Assembly: GCA_024683775.1 (NCBI GenBank)
Contig: GCA_024683775.1_4106.1
From: a phage
Reading direction: 5' to 3' (one strand)
DNA length: 64,000 nt
Part shown: positions 1,602 through 58,086 of the stretch, piece by piece
How positions within the stretch are numbered: position 1 is the first letter of the stretch
How the letters are laid out: the number at the start of each line of letters is the position of its first letter
Notes under the pieces: model-generated
Told to the model about the DNA's origin: nothing
The model's database searches: none
Seen by the model: only the letters and a program-made list of their open reading frames with translations
Position numbers and translations under genes: made by a program

Positions 1602-1910
1602 ATGTCACAGATATGTTATGTTATAGTAAATGATGCGTGGCCTGATTATGTTAAGATAGGATTTACCAGTAAATCTGAAATGACAGAACGTTTAAGGACA
1701 TATCAAACTGCTACACCTTTTAGAGATTTTGTGGTATACCATGAAGTACACTTTGAAGATGCACGTTTAGCAGAGAAAGAAATTCACAAAAGACTAAAAC
1801 AAATGAACGCAGTAAGGCAACCTAACACCGAGTGGTTCAAGATGCCTAAGAAGATAGCAGCGAACATCGTTGATTCTGTTCTTGACGATATGGAAAACGA
1901 CTTGCTATAG
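1602..1910 (+). CDS. T5orf172 / GIY-YIG-like domain protein
   Basis: YVKIGFTSKSEMTERLRTY motif; GGAG 9 nt upstream of ATG 1602. Confidence 0.5.
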   Translation: MSQICYVIVNDAWPDYVKIGFTSKSEMTERLRTYQTATPFRDFVVYHEVHFEDARLAEKEIHKRLKQMNAVRQPNTEWFKMPKKIAANIVDSVLDDMENDLL

Positions 1911-8886: not shown

Positions 8887-8896
8887 TATAAATAAT

Positions 8897-8924
8897 GGGG
8901 AACATGGAGTTCCCCAAATTTTTG
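8897..8924 (+). terminator. rho-independent terminator
   Basis: GGGGAAC-ATGGA-GTTCCCC hairpin then T-run. Confidence 0.6.
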
Positions 8925-8952: not shown

Positions 8953-9159
8953 ATGCCATTATATACATATCGTTGTGAAAAAGAAGAATGTAAACACAGT
9001 TTAGAAAAGATTGTAAAAATTGCCAATCGTGAAGAACCTCATGATTGTCCTCAATGTAATGGTGAAAAGACTATGAAGTTGGAAGTTTTTACCCCTGGTG
9101 ATAAAGGTGCTAATCTTTATTTCCGTGGTAAATGGTTTGCAAACACTGGAGGTTACTGA
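8953..9159 (+). CDS. FmdB-like zinc-ribbon protein
   Basis: MPLYTYRCEKEECKH...CPQCNG pattern typical of FmdB-family Zn ribbons. Confidence 0.5.
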   Translation: MPLYTYRCEKEECKHSLEKIVKIANREEPHDCPQCNGEKTMKLEVFTPGDKGANLYFRGKWFANTGGY

Positions 9160-9160
9160 T

Positions 9161-9463
9161 ATGAAAATTAAAATGATTAACGATTATGTACTGGTTCGTC
9201 AAATTGAAGCACAGAATAAAAGTACTGGTGGTATTATCCTAGGAAACGTGGAACCACCATGTGTTGGTATGGTGATTTCAGTTGGTGAAGGTAAAGTACT
9301 ACCTAATGGGCAAATTGCAGAACATAATATTTGTGTTGGTGATATGGTTGTATTCGGTCGCTCATCACTAAACACTCCTATCACTGAAGATCTTGGTGGT
9401 GGTGAAGACACATATTATGTGATGAAAATTGAAGAAATTTTTGGTAAGAAATCAAATGGCTAA
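9161..9463 (+). CDS. GroES-like co-chaperonin (gp31-like)
   Basis: DYVLVRQIEAQNKSTGGIILG ... VGDMVVFG matches the Cpn10 pattern; GGAGG 7 nt upstream of ATG 9161. Confidence 0.6.
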   Translation: MKIKMINDYVLVRQIEAQNKSTGGIILGNVEPPCVGMVISVGEGKVLPNGQIAEHNICVGDMVVFGRSSLNTPITEDLGGGEDTYYVMKIEEIFGKKSNG

Positions 9464-10181
9464 AAAAAGGTTTATTCCTTTCTGGATGGTCCCCGCTCAT
9501 TGGGGACTTTCTGGTAAAGCGAAAGAGATTGCGAAAGCATACTACTATAACGATGATTATGAAGCTGATATGTTAGTTGCAGAACTTACATATCTAACAC
9601 CATATGAAGTTGATGTAGCACAGTTGGATATCAAAAAGAAATACAATGTATTAGAAACTCTTGATTATCTAATAGCACAGGCAGATGTACAATTGAAGTA
9701 TTCCAAGATTACCCGTGATGAGTATAATGTAAAATTACTTGATGCTAAATTAAGTACTGGTGCAATTACTCAAAAAGAGTATGATATGGAAGTAATCGAA
9801 CTAATGCCTGATGGTGATGACAAACGTCTTAAAGCTATCGAGTTTGCATATCGTTATGAAGAGATTACACAACAAGAGTATTCAAAGGAAATCTTTACTT
9901 TACGTAAAGAACCTTGGATTGATTTGGATGTAGTACTTAATCCAGAAACAAATGAAGTTGAATTTGTTTTTGATTATAATGAATACTTTTGGAAAAAGTT
10001 AAAAGCGGAAGGTCATCCAGGTAATGACGAAGAAGAAATTATTGACAACTTCGTTAGAGACATGGGGCGTAAACTAGCTACGGATGATTTCAGTGATGAT
10101 TATGACGTAAAGCTAGTGAATGCGAACGAAGGGTTAGAGAATCTACCTGGTTTACCTGAAGGGTTCCGTTCATACAAATAA
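9456..10181 (+). CDS. hypothetical protein with ITxxEY repeats
   Basis: ORF overlapping the GroES-like stop by 8 nt; repeated ITRDEY / ITQKEY / ITQQEY motifs. Confidence 0.4.
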   Translation: MAKKRFIPFWMVPAHWGLSGKAKEIAKAYYYNDDYEADMLVAELTYLTPYEVDVAQLDIKKKYNVLETLDYLIAQADVQLKYSKITRDEYNVKLLDAKLSTGAITQKEYDMEVIELMPDGDDKRLKAIEFAYRYEEITQQEYSKEIFTLRKEPWIDLDVVLNPETNEVEFVFDYNEYFWKKLKAEGHPGNDEEEIIDNFVRDMGRKLATDDFSDDYDVKLVNANEGLENLPGLPEGFRSYK

Positions 10182-10214
10182 AAAAAGGAGAGCAAAAGCT
10201 CTCCTTTTCTTTTA
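10181..10214. terminator. bidirectional terminator between convergent genes
   Basis: A-run, GGAGAGC-AAAA-GCTCTCC hairpin, T-run. Confidence 0.6.
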
Positions 10215-11651: not shown

Positions 11652-16908
<5,257 letters not shown>

Positions 16909-56514: not shown

Positions 56515-56826
56515 ATGTTCAATCCATTTTTTGATCCATCAACCATGACCGAGAAAGAGTTACAATTGAAAATTAACGAACAATCGATGCGTATTACGTC
56601 TGCTCGTGCAGCAGGTATGAGTGATATGATTGTTGGTAACATGCAAACCGTTCTGAATCAGTGCTATGCTGAATTAGAGATTCGTCAGGGACAAAAAGAA
56701 AAAACCTCCTATGATGAGCAAGACCCATGTATATTTGACATGAACTCTTACTTAACGGATAACGAAGAGGATCAGAAGAAGAAAAATGAAAGTACAAGGA
56801 AACAGATTTATAAGTCCCAATGGTGA
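56515..56826 (+). CDS. hypothetical protein
   Basis: 103-aa ORF. Confidence 0.4.
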   Translation: MFNPFFDPSTMTEKELQLKINEQSMRITSARAAGMSDMIVGNMQTVLNQCYAELEIRQGQKEKTSYDEQDPCIFDMNSYLTDNEEDQKKKNESTRKQIYKSQW

Positions 56827-57304
56827 TGTAAAATGTAACCTTAATGCAGTCGTGTATGCAATCAACTGTGGTGCAGATATTCAGTACTTACAGCTACAGG
56901 AGATTGATGAACCGGAACGATTGAAATTTAACGATAATTGTAAAAAATTTGGTTTAGAACAGCGTATGCTGGATTATACAATAGAACATGATAAAAACCA
57001 TGAGCTATGGCGTTATGATCCAGTGTACGATAACATCAACTTGCGTGAGTACTTTTTACAGAAATGTACATCGGATGAAGCCCGTGAACGTGTAATGTAT
57101 GAGATTGATTTGTTTGAACATTACAACATGACTAAGCTTTTAAGATGTATGATCTGGTTAGTTGATTATATGGAAGAGCACAATATTTTTTGGGGTCTTG
57201 GGCGTGGTAGTTCAGTGGCTTCGTATTGTTTGTTCCTGATTGATTTGCATATGGTTGATTCTTTGAAGTATAAACTAGATGTAAATGAATTTTTGAAATG
57301 GTAG
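56786..57304 (+). CDS. DnaE-like (Pol III alpha) palm-domain fragment, N-terminal half
   Basis: WGLGRGSSVASYCLFLIDLHMVDSLKYKLDVNEFL resembles DnaE [34 protein letters not shown]; ends just before where the catalytic Asp pair would lie. Confidence 0.45.
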   Translation: MKVQGNRFISPNGDVKCNLNAVVYAINCGADIQYLQLQEIDEPERLKFNDNCKKFGLEQRMLDYTIEHDKNHELWRYDPVYDNINLREYFLQKCTSDEARERVMYEIDLFEHYNMTKLLRCMIWLVDYMEEHNIFWGLGRGSSVASYCLFLIDLHMVDSLKYKLDVNEFLKW

Positions 57305-57344
57305 AAAAACATGTGATATAATGTTGTTTGAGGCGTTATATCAC
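57293..57344 (+). promoter_or_regulatory. promoter (TTGAAA, 18-bp spacer, TGtgaTATAAT) embedded in a 9-bp inverted repeat
   Basis: -10 at 57317-57322; GTGATATAA at 57313-57321 and TTATATCAC at 57336-57344 are perfect inverted repeats. Confidence 0.45.
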
Positions 57345-57367: not shown

Positions 57368-57712
57368 ATGTCAAAACACACAACTTATCGTGGAACCACC
57401 ATTGATATGGATATGCTAAAGTATCAAAACCAGCACCAAGTAGCACTAGGTAATGCAAACCTAAATGCTCGTGGTGATAAGATTGGTTCAGGTGGTACGG
57501 TCATTAAAACCCGTGAAGAACTAATCCAAGAAAAAGAACGTGAAATGCAAATTCCTGATTTCATTCCTGAACACCAACTTCACAGTGCTGAATATAGTAC
57601 TGAAGAAGTATGGGATGATGAAAGCTTTGAAGTTCAACCACAAGAACCAGAAGTTGAAGTATCTGAAGAGAAGAAAGCTCCACGCCGAGCAAAAACTAAA
57701 GATCAGGAGTAA
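57368..57712 (+). CDS. hypothetical protein
   Basis: 114-aa ORF. Confidence 0.4.
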   Translation: MSKHTTYRGTTIDMDMLKYQNQHQVALGNANLNARGDKIGSGGTVIKTREELIQEKEREMQIPDFIPEHQLHSAEYSTEEVWDDESFEVQPQEPEVEVSEEKKAPRRAKTKDQE

Positions 57713-57715
57713 TTC

Positions 57716-58042
57716 ATGACCAATAAAGTAATGACAGCTTGTAAAGGTAAAGTTATTGTAACTGAACTAGAACATGGTGAGCGTAAAACCGCAGGTGGTA
57801 TTGTACTGACAAGTGATGATGGTAAGATACGTGGTATTCGTTGTCGTTGGGCTAAAGTATATTCTGTTGGTGAAGACATTACCGATATCAAAGAAGGACA
57901 ATGGATTCTAATTGACCACGGTCGTTGGTCGAGAACTATTGAGATTGATGGTATTAAAATGAATCTCGTTGATTATCCAGCAGCAGTAAGTTTGGTATCT
58001 GACACTGATCCACGCATCTCTGCTCAAACATTTGGTCGTTAA
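57716..58042 (+). CDS. GroES-like co-chaperonin (Cpn10 family)
   Basis: GKVIVTELEHGERKTAGGIVLTSDDGK closely parallels GroES [27 protein letters not shown]. Confidence 0.7.
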   Translation: MTNKVMTACKGKVIVTELEHGERKTAGGIVLTSDDGKIRGIRCRWAKVYSVGEDITDIKEGQWILIDHGRWSRTIEIDGIKMNLVDYPAAVSLVSDTDPRISAQTFGR

Positions 58043-58053
58043 AACATAAATCT

Positions 58054-58086
58054 AAAGCTCGGATATATTATCTGGGCTTTTTATTT
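58054..58086 (+). terminator. rho-independent terminator
   Basis: AGCTCGGAT-ATATT-ATCTGGGCT (with G-U pairs) then TTTTTATTT. Confidence 0.5.

What the first reader, a model, noticed from the sequence alone, without database searches (positions are those of the whole stretch)
57716..58042. Two distinct GroES-like co-chaperonin genes in one window
The genes at 9161-9463 and 57716-58042 both match the Cpn10 pattern but are clearly different sequences. T4-type phages normally carry a single gp31 to retarget GroEL for capsid folding. Two paralogs may mean separate client proteins or separate timing.
Basis: partly seen in the sequence, partly recalled or inferred. Interest (0 to 1): 0.4.

Follow-up and report, generated by a model that had tools for sequence, protein, structure and literature searches.

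The report
Two GroEL lid genes, jumbo coliphage
A giant E. coli phage (genus Asteriusvirus) really does carry two very different GroES-like "lid" genes for the host GroEL folding machine, one GroES-shaped and one shaped like phage T4 gp31; both are already annotated in public genomes, but nobody has tested why the phage keeps two.

Summary
Observation confirmed. Both ORFs exist at the stated coordinates. Both are Cpn10 by Pfam and have predicted Cpn10 folds, and they share about 34% identity over 41 residues.

The window is not a T4-type phage. It is an Asteriusvirus (Rak2-like jumbo myophage), 99.6% identical to fEgEco12 and EC.P1.

- **Gene A (9161-9463)** is GroES-type: roof hairpin present, GGIIL mobile loop 2 residues shorter than in E. 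coli GroES.
- **Gene B (57716-58042)** has gp31-like architecture: no roof hairpin, and a GGIVL mobile loop 5 residues longer than in GroES. By sequence it is a separate lineage, no closer to T4 gp31 than to GroES.

Both genes are conserved across the Rak2-like clade, with dN/dS about 0.06. The Escherichia members encode no GroEL, so both proteins presumably cap host GroEL.

The two genes sit in different operons. B follows a conserved partner ORF, behind a strong extended -10 promoter of the class found before replication genes. A lies between a zinc-ribbon gene and an overlapping virion-protein gene, behind a T4-late-like TATAAATA.

The pair is already annotated as co-chaperonins in fEgEco12, Turkey3, 121Q and others. 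Function is untested. Metagenomic relatives with fused Cpn10 domains hint at mixed lids.

Modest interest; already known at the annotation level.

The parts
9161..9463 (+). Gene A: GroES-type co-chaperonin (100 aa), identical to fEgEco12 g361 'co-chaperone GroES'
   Evidence: Pfam Cpn10 61.1 bits over full length. phrog_3188 GroES 9.9e-27. PDB GroES sequences down to 1e-11. AF2 model plus Foldseek: the top 36 hits are all Cpn10. 100% identical in fEgEco12, Turkey3, Ecwhy_1 and others.
9212..9256 (+). A mobile loop (residues about 18-32), with G23-G24-I25-I26-L27 at the same numbering as E. coli GroES G23-G24-I25-V26-L27. The distal arm is 2 residues shorter than in GroES and carries a conserved E-P-P-C motif.
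   Evidence: Alignments A2 and A5. Low-pLDDT block 21-30 between strands 9-17 and 33-41.
9284..9343 (+). A roof beta-hairpin (residues 42-61, GEGKVLPNGQIAEHNICVGD), the same length as in E. coli GroES
   Evidence: Alignment A5. Short strands at 45-46 and 52-53 in the model.
8953..9159 (+). Zinc-ribbon (CxxC...CxxC) gene one base upstream of A, in the same operon
   Evidence: Pfam Zn_ribbon_8 42.5 bits and phrog_13665. The same arrangement is found in CBB and PBECO4.
9456..10181 (+). Virion structural protein gene whose start overlaps the end of A by 8 bases
   Evidence: phrog_13349 7e-111. Annotated as virion structural protein in fEgEco12 and CBB. Sequence.
8887..8916 (+). TATAAATA (T4-late-promoter-like, 8887-8894) followed by the hairpin 8896-8916, between the sliding-clamp gene and the Zn-ribbon/A/virion operon
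   Evidence: Conserved in PBECO4 but absent at the equivalent place in CBB.
10183..10208 (+). Terminator-like hairpin that closes the A operon
57716..58042 (+). Gene B: roofless, long-loop Cpn10 (108 aa), identical to fEgEco12 g423 'co-chaperone GroES'; annotated 'head morphogenesis' or 'chaperonin' in other records
   Evidence: Pfam Cpn10 22.6 bits. phrog_931 3.7e-20, which is the family where T4 gp31 scores 3.7e-50. AF2 pLDDT 84.5; the top 21 Foldseek PDB hits are all co-chaperonins, including gp31 1g31. Found in 88 phage records.
57764..57844 (+). B mobile loop (residues about 17-43) with G27-G28-I29-V30-L31. The distal arm is 4 residues longer than in GroES, and it ends in the invariant R44-W45.
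   Evidence: Alignments A1 and A5. Low-pLDDT blocks 21-40 between strands 12-16 and 44-51.
57368..57712 (+). orf114: conserved partner gene of unknown function, 3 bases upstream of B
   Evidence: phrog_14844, no Pfam match. Directly upstream of the B homologue in CBB, Vibrio phage 2.275.O, PA5oct, PBECO4 and metagenome contigs. dN/dS 0.03.
57293..57322 (+). Sigma-70-type promoter TTGAAA-N18-TATAAT with an extended -10 TG, upstream of orf114-B
   Evidence: 11 of 12 matches plus TG. The extended -10 motif occurs in 10 intergenic places against 0.55 expected, all before replication or nucleotide-metabolism genes. Conserved in CBB and PBECO4.
58054..58080 (+). Intrinsic-terminator-like hairpin plus T-run directly after B
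   Evidence: Equivalent hairpins follow the B homologue in CBB and PBECO4.

Best explanation
The window belongs to an Asteriusvirus (Rak2-like) jumbo coliphage. It encodes two anciently diverged Cpn10 co-chaperonins and no GroEL. Both are predicted to form lids that dock on the host GroEL through the hydrophobic tripeptide of their mobile loops (inferred). Gene A is a GroES-type lid with a closed roof. It is transcribed with a zinc-ribbon protein and a virion protein, probably including late transcription. Gene B is a roofless lid with a loop 5 residues longer than in GroES. That is the architecture that in T4 gp31 gives a taller, roomier folding cage. B is transcribed with a conserved small partner ORF from an early/middle-type promoter of the replication-gene class. 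The most likely reason for keeping both is division of labour, with different phage client proteins and/or different expression windows, rather than redundancy. Shown here: gene existence, fold class, loop and roof anatomy, conservation, purifying selection, operon structure, and absence of a phage GroEL. Inferred: GroEL binding, heptamer formation, timing and clients.
For: - Cpn10 family and fold for both genes.
- The GroEL-contact motif is conserved. In the A family G24 and I25 are invariant and L27 is at least 90% conserved. In the B family G28 is invariant and I29 is at least 90% conserved.
- The roof hairpin is present in A and GroES and absent in B and gp31.
- Loop length, excluding the GGIVL motif: GroES 10+14, A 10+12, B 11+18, gp31 14+15.
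- Both genes occur throughout the Rak2-like clade: 81 phage records for A and 88 for B, always about 50 kb apart. B also occurs in PA5oct, Atu_ph07 and Phosso.
- dN/dS against PBECO4 is 0.062 for A and 0.064 for B.
- tblastn with E. coli GroEL finds no Escherichia phage among 264 matching records, whereas 34 Escherichia jumbo phages carry A and B.
- The promoter and terminator bracketing orf114-B are conserved in CBB and PBECO4.
- The extended -10 promoter class is restricted to replication and nucleotide-metabolism genes. ATAAATA is enriched in intergenic regions before structural genes: 9 against 3.5 expected.
- The clade encodes a T4-like late sigma factor (PMC6102473; PMC7247149).
- T4 gp31 and RB49 CocO are established precedents for phage lids that work on host GroEL (Keppel 2002, cited in PMC5259590; PMC5649160).
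Against: - There is no experimental datum for any Rak2-like Cpn10: no binding, complementation, expression or knockout.
- The models are monomers, so oligomeric state and GroEL docking were not modelled.
- B passes the Pfam threshold only marginally and only over its N-terminal 60%.
- The TATAAATA before the A operon is absent in CBB, where the operon follows a terminator without a visible late motif. The 'late' label for A is therefore weak, and read-through from the clamp promoter is possible.
- The ATAAATA enrichment is modest: 9 of 500 shuffles reach it.
- The T4 rationale for a bigger cage (a 56 kDa gp23) does not transfer obviously. The Asteriusvirus major capsid protein is 42 kDa (PMC7247149). 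Clients are unknown.
- B lies in a deeply conserved replication-gene block (Pol III alpha fragment - orf114 - B - clamp loader). That could point to a role other than capsid folding.
Confidence: 0.6

Rival explanations
1. A and B do not act as two separate homo-heptameric lids. Instead they co-assemble into mixed lids on GroEL, as the chloroplast Cpn10/Cpn20 family does. The roofed-to-roofless subunit ratio would then tune cage size and roof opening.
For: Metagenomic relatives at the same locus (Pol III alpha fragment - orf114 homologue - Cpn10) encode fused Cpn10 domains. P0134 is an A-type domain (38.6 bits to the A-family HMM; phrog_3188) joined in frame to a B-type domain (122 bits; phrog_931), and a further GroES-type gene lies just upstream of it. 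P0123 and P0125 join a short-loop roofless domain to a B-type domain, each on two contigs. P0124 is a triple B-type. Domain fusion is classical 'Rosetta stone' evidence for physical association. Precedents are Cpn10(1) working only as a hetero-oligomer with Cpn20 (PMC4242682) and the Cpn11/20/23 complex (PDB 7ekq, which is also the best PDB sequence hit for both A and B).
Against: The A::B fusion rests on a single 2-kb contig. In the window the two genes are 48 kb apart, in different operons with different promoter types. PA5oct-like, Atu_ph07 and Phosso phages show B but no A by tblastn, so B can evidently work without A. No multimer modelling could be run.
Confidence: 0.15
2. B is a Cpn10-fold protein that has been recruited to a function other than capping GroEL, for example together with orf114 in the replication module. 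Only A would then be a working co-chaperonin.
For: B always lies between a DNA Pol III alpha fragment and the clamp loader, with a conserved partner ORF and a replication-class promoter. Family-specific invariant residues R44-W45 and H68-G-R70-W71-x-R73 have no counterpart in GroES or gp31. The Pfam Cpn10 match is marginal and partial. The B-family profile retrieves only 616 clusters out of 1.84 billion proteins, so it does not recognise ordinary GroES.
Against: The GroEL-binding G-G-I-V-L tripeptide, within a long low-confidence loop, is conserved across the whole family. That is hard to explain without GroEL binding. T4 gene 31 itself sits among early genes (cd, 31.1, rIII), not among head genes. 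Gene order in this clade is conserved globally. Tandem fusions with GroES-type domains tie B to chaperonin function.
Confidence: 0.15
3. The two genes are functionally redundant. One is a dispensable back-up, or a leftover of horizontal acquisition.
For: Phage genomes often carry accessory duplicates. The CBB branch has gained a third, bacterial-like GroES with 47% identity to the E. coli protein. This shows that such genes are readily acquired.
Against: Both are retained in every Rak2-like genus examined (Asteriusvirus, Alcyoneusvirus, Mimasvirus, Eneladusvirus, the Vibrio phage), with conserved synteny and dN/dS of about 0.06. Their lid architectures differ in exactly the two elements that determine cage geometry.
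Confidence: 0.07

Closest known systems
E. coli GroES / bacterial Cpn10 (PF00166)
   Same: Gene A has the same length class, the same G23-G24-I25-x-L27 numbering, a roof hairpin of identical length, and a full-length Pfam and PDB sequence match. Gene B shares the fold and the GGIVL tripeptide.
   Different: A is only about 37% identical to E. coli GroES over 67 residues. It has a distal loop arm 2 residues shorter, with a conserved EPPC motif. It is encoded in an operon with a zinc-ribbon protein and a virion protein instead of with groEL. B lacks the roof hairpin and has a loop 5 residues longer.
Phage T4 gp31 (head-assembly co-chaperonin; PDB 1G31, 2CGT; phrog_931)
   Same: B shares the two structural adaptations that distinguish gp31 from GroES: no roof hairpin, and a mobile loop of the same total length (29 residues between the flanking strands, against 24 in GroES). 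It falls in the same PHROG. Like gene 31, it sits among early or replication genes. The predicted partner is host GroEL.
   Different: The extra loop residues lie on the distal arm in B and on the proximal arm in gp31. B lacks the gp31 C-terminal insertion, and its phrog_931 match covers only positions 1-80 of 109. An HMM built only from T4-like gp31 sequences scores B at 9.5 bits, lower than A at 13.8 bits. The hhalign probabilities are equal for B and A, 92.5% against 92.1%. The upstream partner orf114 is unrelated to T4 31.1. tblastn with gp31 finds 1396 T4-like records, with no Rak2-like phage among the listed rows or the named top genera.
RB49 CocO
   Same: It is a second, independently diverged phage co-chaperonin that works with host GroEL and can replace GroES (Keppel et al. 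2002, as cited in PMC5259590 and PMC5649160).
   Different: No sequence comparison was made here. RB49 carries one such gene, not two.
Chloroplast Cpn10/Cpn20 (Cpn11/20/23) co-chaperonin system
   Same: Several divergent Cpn10 paralogues serve one chaperonin. Tandem-domain forms exist among metagenomic relatives of B. Chlamydomonas Cpn20 and Cpn11 are the best PDB sequence hits for A and B respectively.
   Different: In the window the two domains are separate genes 48 kb apart. Hetero-oligomerisation is untested.
'Two GroES-like proteins' reported for phage CBB (Buttimer et al. 2017, PMC5259590)
   Same: It belongs to the same phage clade. CBB_268 is the orthologue of gene A, with the same zinc-ribbon and virion-protein neighbours.
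   Different: The second gene named there, CBB_131, is a third, bacterial-like GroES at about 67 kb that the Escherichia phages lack. The B orthologue CBB_330 was not counted in that paper. So CBB has three Cpn10 genes, and the A+B pairing as such is recorded only in GenBank annotations.

Membership tests
Cpn10/GroES co-chaperonin (PF00166) | Sequence match to the family profile above the curated threshold | tested here: met
   A: 61.1 bits, positions 1-92 of 93. B: 22.6 bits against a cutoff of 21.1, positions 4-65 only. The B match is marginal and partial.
Cpn10/GroES co-chaperonin (PF00166) | Cpn10 beta-barrel fold | tested here: met
   These are predicted models only. For B (pLDDT 84.5) the top 21 PDB hits are all Cpn10/GroES/gp31, with TM 0.53-0.66. 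For A (pLDDT 76) the top 36 hits are all Cpn10. The viral library gives GroES-annotated proteins for B.
Cpn10/GroES co-chaperonin (PF00166) | Flexible mobile loop carrying Gly followed by a hydrophobic tripeptide that contacts GroEL | tested here: met
   A has GGIIL and B has GGIVL. The motif is conserved in both families. The loop regions are the low-pLDDT stretches between the first two main strands.
Cpn10/GroES co-chaperonin (PF00166) | Roof beta-hairpin that closes the dome | tested here: not met
   This feature is met for A, with the same length as in GroES. It is not met for B, which has a 7-9 column deletion. The hairpin is typical but not obligatory: gp31 and some virioplankton GroES lack it (PMC5649160).
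Cpn10/GroES co-chaperonin (PF00166) | Heptameric ring that binds GroEL in the presence of nucleotide | not testable with these tools
E. coli GroEL is the only available partner, because no GroEL is found in Escherichia jumbo phages.
T4 gp31 family (head-assembly co-chaperonin) | Roofless dome and elongated mobile loop | tested here: met
   B has no roof hairpin. Its loop is 11+18 residues, against 14+15 in gp31 and 10+14 in GroES. The extension is on the opposite arm from gp31.
T4 gp31 family (head-assembly co-chaperonin) | Specific sequence relationship to gp31 beyond generic Cpn10 similarity | tested here: inconclusive
   phrog_931 scores 3.7e-20 for B and 3.7e-50 for gp31. However, that PHROG is built by remote-homology clustering and may already contain B relatives. 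An HMM of seven T4-like gp31 sequences gives B 9.5 bits, A 13.8 and GroES 8.8. The B-family HMM gives gp31 4.5 bits and GroES 13.2. hhalign gives B-gp31 92.5% and A-gp31 92.1%.
T4 gp31 family (head-assembly co-chaperonin) | gp31-specific C-terminal insertion (about 14 residues before the last strand) and conserved H-Y-K...Y C-terminus | tested here: not met
   Absent from B in alignment A5. The phrog_931 match stops at profile position 80 of 109.
T4 gp31 family (head-assembly co-chaperonin) | Gene neighbourhood cd - 31.2 - 31.1 - 31 - rIII | tested here: not met
   B lies between a Pol III alpha fragment plus orf114 and the clamp loader. orf114 shows no similarity to gp31.1.
T4 gp31 family (head-assembly co-chaperonin) | Required with GroEL for folding of the major capsid protein | not testable with these tools
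   No genetic or biochemical data exist for any Rak2-like phage. The Asteriusvirus major capsid protein is 42 kDa.
Tandem / hetero-oligomeric co-chaperonins (chloroplast Cpn20 type) | Two Cpn10 domains in one polypeptide | tested here: not met
   The window genes are single-domain and 48 kb apart. Fused forms occur only in metagenomic relatives (P0123, P0124, P0125, P0134).
Tandem / hetero-oligomeric co-chaperonins (chloroplast Cpn20 type) | Different Cpn10 paralogues co-assemble in one lid | not testable with these tools
   This would need multimer modelling or native mass spectrometry.

The most novel reading that the evidence does not exclude
The Rak2-like jumbo phages run a two-lid, or mixed-lid, system on the host's single GroEL. 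A roofed GroES-type subunit (A) and a roofless long-loop subunit (B, possibly working with its conserved partner orf114) would co-assemble or alternate on GroEL to set cage volume and roof opening for different phage clients. This would be a viral counterpart of the chloroplast Cpn10/Cpn20 system. The natural A-type::B-type and B::B domain fusions in uncultured relatives are the comparative hint for it.
Probability: 0.15. Interest if true: 0.6.

Novelty: already known. Interest (0 to 1): 0.3.

Why it matters
Phage co-chaperonins are the textbook case of a virus re-tooling a host folding machine (T4 gp31, RB49 CocO). Every studied case has one lid gene. A whole clade of 350-kb phages that keeps two lids with opposite roof and loop designs, under strong purifying selection and without its own GroEL, would be a natural experiment. 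It could show how lid geometry selects clients, and a GroES-type and a gp31-type lid could be compared on the same GroEL in the same infection. These phages infect E. coli K-12 (Sharanji and slurp01 were isolated on MG1655), so complementation and knockout tests are straightforward. As a finding, however, it is not new: the genes are already annotated as co-chaperonins in several GenBank records.

Tried and rejected
1. B as a true gp31 orthologue. The phrog_931 hit suggested it, but an HMM built only from T4-like gp31 sequences does not prefer B over A. hhalign is equal for both. Synteny and the C-terminal half also differ. I therefore keep 'gp31-like architecture' and reject 'gp31 family member'.

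2. orf114 as the counterpart of T4 gp31.1. There is no similarity (BLASTP E 5.7).

3. A phage-encoded GroEL partner. None is found in Escherichia jumbo phages. Among the relatives examined here, only Vibrio phage 2.275.O was seen to have one.

4. My first reading of the CBB paper as prior description of this pair. This was wrong: CBB_131 is a third gene.

5. Temporal expression from the PA5oct RNA-seq paper. It gives no gene-level data in the text, and no supplements are held.

6. Exact TATAAATA as a late promoter. Its three copies are fewer than chance predicts for the whole window. Only the shorter ATAAATA shows intergenic enrichment (9 against 3.5), and the motif upstream of the A operon is not conserved in CBB.

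7. Function of orf114. It has no Pfam hit and no named homologue among 45 relatives.

8. The papers on fEgEco12, Sharanji, Eneladusvirus and phAPEC6. None discusses the co-chaperonins.
Full report

Yes. The ORF at 57716-58042 (+, 108 aa; "B") is present. So is the ATG-initiated ORF at 9161-9463 (+, 100 aa; "A"), which lies inside a longer GTG ORF.

Both pass the Pfam Cpn10 gathering score of 21.1 bits. A scores 61.1 bits over the whole profile. B scores 22.6 bits and matches only over residues 8-65.

A matches solved GroES/Cpn10 chains down to E 1.5e-11. B matches only Chlamydomonas Cpn11, weakly, at E 0.14.

The two proteins are very different from each other. BLASTP gives 34% identity over 41 residues, E 0.017. 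hhalign of their families gives 68% probability.

A scan of all 337 stop-to-stop segments of the window with three family HMMs finds no further Cpn10-like ORF.

**2. Where the window comes from**

The window is not from a T4-type (Straboviridae) phage.

- Both loci are 99.6% identical to Escherichia jumbo phages EC.P1, fEgEco12 and WPEC5, 99.5% to Ecwhy_1, and about 80-83% to PBECO4/121Q.
- fEgEco12 and Ecwhy_1 are a species of the genus Asteriusvirus, part of the Rak2-like jumbo myophages (PMC13070987).
- The window corresponds to fEgEco12 positions about 204.8-268.8 kb. It starts in the major capsid protein gene and runs through replication, packaging and virion genes.

In fEgEco12 both genes are already annotated "co-chaperone GroES" (g361, g423). 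Turkey3, 121Q, Ecwhy_1, Sharanji, Muenster and Munch also annotate both as chaperonin or GroES. RefSeq records call B "head morphogenesis".

**3. Anatomy of the two proteins**

AlphaFold2 models built on family alignments have mean pLDDT 84.5 for B and 76.0 for A. Their significant Foldseek hits in the PDB are exclusively co-chaperonins:
- for B, the top 21 hits, including T4 gp31 (1g31);
- for A, the top 36 hits.

The viral structure library returns GroES-annotated proteins for B.

A twelve-sequence alignment of E. coli GroES, the A family, the B family and T4-like gp31 shows the differences. My recalled T4 gp31 sequence was verified as 100% identical to GenBank X17657.

| Feature | E. coli GroES | A | B | T4 gp31 |
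|---|---|---|---|---|
| GroEL-contact motif | G23-G24-I25-V26-L27 | G23-G24-I25-I26-L27 | G27-G28-I29-V30-L31 | S-G-L-I-I |
| Mobile loop, proximal + distal arm (excluding GGIVL) | 10+14 | 10+12 | 11+18 | 14+15 |
| Roof hairpin | present (21 residues) | present (21 residues) | absent | absent |
| gp31 C-terminal insertion | no | no | no | yes |

- **A** keeps the GroES numbering of the contact motif and a roof hairpin of identical length. Its distal loop arm is 2 residues shorter.
- **B** has lost the roof hairpin, as gp31 has. B and gp31 are both 5 residues longer than GroES in the loop, but the extension lies on opposite arms. B also lacks the gp31 C-terminal insertion.
- In both models the loop is the low-confidence stretch between the first two main strands. 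Only the A model has the small hairpin strands at the roof position.
- The contact motif is conserved family-wide. In A, G24 and I25 are invariant. In B, G28 is invariant and I29 is at least 90% conserved.
- B has invariant residues of its own with no counterpart in GroES or gp31: R44-W45 and H68-G-R70-W71-x-R73.

**4. Is B a gp31?**

PHROGs places B in phrog_931 (E 3.7e-20), the family in which T4 gp31 scores 3.7e-50. A and E. coli GroES fall in phrog_3188.

PHROGs are built by remote-homology clustering, so I tested this independently.

| HMM built from | B (bits) | A (bits) | E. coli GroES (bits) | T4 gp31 (bits) |
|---|---|---|---|---|
| seven T4-like gp31 sequences | 9.5 | 13.8 | 8.8 | 167.7 |
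| B family | 174.6 | 9.7 | 13.2 | 4.5 |
| A family | 9.6 | 163.1 | 53.4 | 6.4 |

hhalign gives B-gp31 92.5% and A-gp31 92.1%. tblastn with gp31 finds 1396 T4-like records, with no Rak2-like phage among the listed rows or the named top genera.

B is therefore a separate Cpn10 lineage whose resemblance to gp31 is architectural and possibly convergent.

The B-family profile retrieves 616 clusters at E<=1e-3 among 1.84 billion representatives, 281 of them at E<=1e-10. This is a distinct, moderately large, mostly metagenomic family. The profile does not pull in ordinary GroES.

**5. Distribution and selection**

- A homologues occur in 81 phage records and B homologues in 88.
- Both are present in every Rak2-like group examined: Asteriusvirus, RaK2/K64-1, Munch/SE_PL, CBB, GAP32, Serratia BF, the Erwinia and Yersinia Eneladusvirus phages, EJP2 and Vibrio phage 2.275.O. 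They are always about 50 kb apart.
- B alone extends to PA5oct-like Pseudomonas phages, Atu_ph07 and Sinorhizobium Phosso.
- Against PBECO4, dN/dS is 0.062 for A and 0.064 for B, with dS of 0.8-1.2, which is near saturation.
- tblastn with E. coli GroES revealed a third, bacterial-like GroES (about 47% identity) at about 65-73 kb in CBB, GAP32, BF and the Erwinia and Yersinia phages. The Escherichia phages do not have it.

This last point corrects a tempting reading of the literature. [quoted passage not shown] 2017 (PMC5259590) are the third gene plus the A orthologue. The B orthologue CBB_330 was not counted there.

tblastn with E. coli GroEL finds 264 phage records, and no Escherichia phage is among the frequent names. 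Vibrio phage 2.275.O does encode a GroEL with 69% identity. In the window's lineage both lids must therefore use host GroEL.

**6. Gene context and expression signals**

*B locus.* B is the second gene of a compact two-gene unit.
- A strong sigma-70-type promoter lies at 57293-57322: TTGAAA, 18-nt spacer, TATAAT with an extended -10 TG, 11 of 12 matches.
- orf114 follows at 57368-57712, then a 3-base gap with a GGAG ribosome-binding site, then B.
- A hairpin plus T-run at 58054-58080 closes the unit.
- Both the promoter and the terminator are conserved in CBB and PBECO4.

orf114 belongs to phrog_14844 and has no Pfam match or named homologue.
- It sits directly upstream of the B homologue in CBB, Vibrio 2.275.O, PA5oct (45% identity, E 2e-16) and PBECO4.
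- The same holds in metagenome contigs, inside the conserved block Pol III alpha fragment - orf114 - B - clamp loader.
- It is unrelated to T4 gp31.1.

*A locus.* A is the middle gene of a different unit.
- The zinc-ribbon gene (8953-9159) ends one base before A.
- A's last 8 bases overlap the start of a virion structural protein gene (9456-10181).
- A terminator-like hairpin follows at 10183-10208.
- Upstream lies TATAAATA (8887-8894) and then a hairpin.
- The same neighbours are present in CBB, PBECO4 and, without the zinc-ribbon gene, the Vibrio phage.

*Promoter classes in the window.*
- The extended -10 motif TGNTAYAAT occurs in 10 intergenic places against 0.55 expected (0 of 500 shuffles reach it). 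All lie before replication or nucleotide-metabolism genes: clamp region, gp32, primase, RNase H, topoisomerase, orf114-B.
- ATAAATA occurs 9 times in intergenic DNA against 3.5 expected (9 of 500 shuffles reach it). It lies mostly before structural genes, including the minus-strand virion genes.
- The clade encodes a T4-like late sigma factor (PMC6102473; PMC7247149).

This suggests B is expressed early or middle and A at least partly late. The evidence for A is weak. Exact TATAAATA is not over-represented in the whole window, and the motif is absent upstream of the A operon in CBB. No gene-level transcript data could be found.

**7. Most likely mechanism**

Both proteins are co-chaperonin lids for host GroEL. 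A forms a closed, GroES-like dome. B forms an open-roofed lid on longer tethers, the design that in gp31 enlarges the cage (Hunt et al. 1997, from established knowledge; PMC6318259 for the GroES/gp31 analogy).

Several observations argue for division of labour by client and/or time, and against redundancy:
- retention of both genes across genera;
- strong purifying selection on both;
- opposite roof and loop designs;
- separate operons.

Confidence is about 0.6 for the core claim that both are GroEL lids with non-redundant roles. It is lower for timing.

One caveat on clients. The T4 argument (a 56-kDa gp23 that does not fit under GroES) does not transfer directly, because the Asteriusvirus major capsid protein is 42 kDa.

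**8. Rivals**

(a) *Mixed lids.* The best hits of the B profile include fused proteins.
- P0134 is an A-type domain (38.6 bits to the A HMM; phrog_3188) joined in frame to a B-type domain (122 bits; phrog_931). It sits at the canonical locus, and another GroES-type gene lies just upstream. It is known from one 2-kb contig only.
- P0123 and P0125 join a short-loop roofless domain to a B-type domain, each on two contigs.
- P0124 has three B-type domains.

Such fusions are Rosetta-stone hints that different Cpn10 domains work in one ring, as in chloroplast Cpn10/Cpn20. Against this: the 48-kb separation, the different promoters, and phages that have B only.

(b) *B exapted to a non-GroEL role in the replication module.* The conserved block, the partner ORF and the private RW/HGRW motifs support this. 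The conserved GGIVL loop, the fusions with GroES-type domains, and the fact that T4 gene 31 also lives among early genes argue against it.

(c) *Redundancy.* This is unlikely given the conservation and the dN/dS values.

**9. Novelty and verdict**

The two proteins are 100% identical to GenBank entries annotated as co-chaperonins. GroES is listed among the clade-specific core genes (PMC5852040). Roofless viral GroES variants have been described (PMC5649160).

What is not in the literature I could search is any functional treatment of the pair. Also missing are the recognition that B is a distinct roofless long-loop lineage with a conserved partner ORF, the count of three paralogues in the CBB branch, and the fused forms.

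The finding is of modest interest. It is a clean, testable system in an E. coli phage, but not a surprise to specialists.

Noticed in passing
window 57368-57712 (+): orf114 (phrog_14844) has no Pfam match or named homologue. It is always immediately upstream of the B-type Cpn10 from Asteriusvirus to PA5oct and uncultured jumbo phages, with dN/dS 0.03. It has a conserved N-terminal motif YRGxxIDMDxLxxQNxxxVAxGNxNxNARGDxxGxGGxVIK, followed by an acidic stretch and a basic tail. It may be a functional partner of B.
   Followed up: partly
L020 1211-1840 (P0134); L021 4001-4627 (P0123); P0124, P0125: Uncultured relatives encode fused Cpn10 domains at the same locus: A-type::B-type (one contig), short-loop roofless::B-type (two contigs each), and a triple B-type. 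These are phage counterparts of chloroplast Cpn20-like tandem co-chaperonins. L020 carries three Cpn10 domains in a row after the orf114 homologue.
   Followed up: partly
CBB KU574722.1 67407-67673 and equivalents in GAP32, Serratia BF, Erwinia pEa_SNUABM_12/47/50, Yersinia fHe-Yen9-04, XbC2: A third, bacterial-like GroES gene (about 47% identity to E. coli GroES) is present in these Rak2-like genera but not in the Escherichia Asteriusvirus group. The CBB paper's 'two GroES-like ORFs' are this gene plus the A orthologue.
   Followed up: partly
MG592671.1 206909-208471 (Vibrio phage 2.275.O._10N.286.54.E11): This Rak2-like Vibrio jumbo phage carries a full GroEL (69% identity to E. coli GroEL) in addition to A-type and B-type Cpn10 genes. 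The Escherichia members have no GroEL.
   Followed up: no
window, intergenic regions, e.g. 4130, 11673, 16900, 16977, 22150, 27003, 33426, 39903, 50557, 57314: There are two promoter classes. The extended -10 TGNTAYAAT, often with a TTGAGACAAAC-like -35, occurs in 10 intergenic places against 0.55 expected, all before replication or nucleotide-metabolism genes. ATAAATA (T4-late-like) occurs 9 times against 3.5 expected, before structural genes (1566, 1913, 8888, 30483, 47565, 54072, and 11583/11646 on the minus strand).
   Followed up: partly
window 13259-15561 (+): The large terminase (gp17-like) is annotated as three successive overlapping ORFs (13259-13945, 13920-14261, 14224-15561). A split or truncated terminase was also noted for CBB in PMC5259590.
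   Followed up: no
window 56786-57304 (+): A stand-alone 172-aa fragment of the DNA Pol III alpha NTPase domain (PF07733, 36 bits) is conserved just upstream of orf114-B in all relatives and metagenome contigs examined.
   Followed up: no
window 1602-1910 (+): A GIY-YIG nuclease gene sits between the major capsid protein region and the tail fibre gene. It is probably a homing endonuclease.
   Followed up: no
window 9251-9262 (A residues 31-34, E-P-P-C): There is a nearly invariant Cys within a conserved EPPC motif in the distal arm of the A mobile loop. The gene immediately upstream encodes a CxxC...CxxC zinc-ribbon protein. No explanation was found.
   Followed up: no
L021 4697-6943: In one uncultured relative the clamp-loader gene downstream of the Cpn10 locus appears interrupted. 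There are intein-splicing (faint) and TnsA-like endonuclease (weak) Pfam hits.
   Followed up: no
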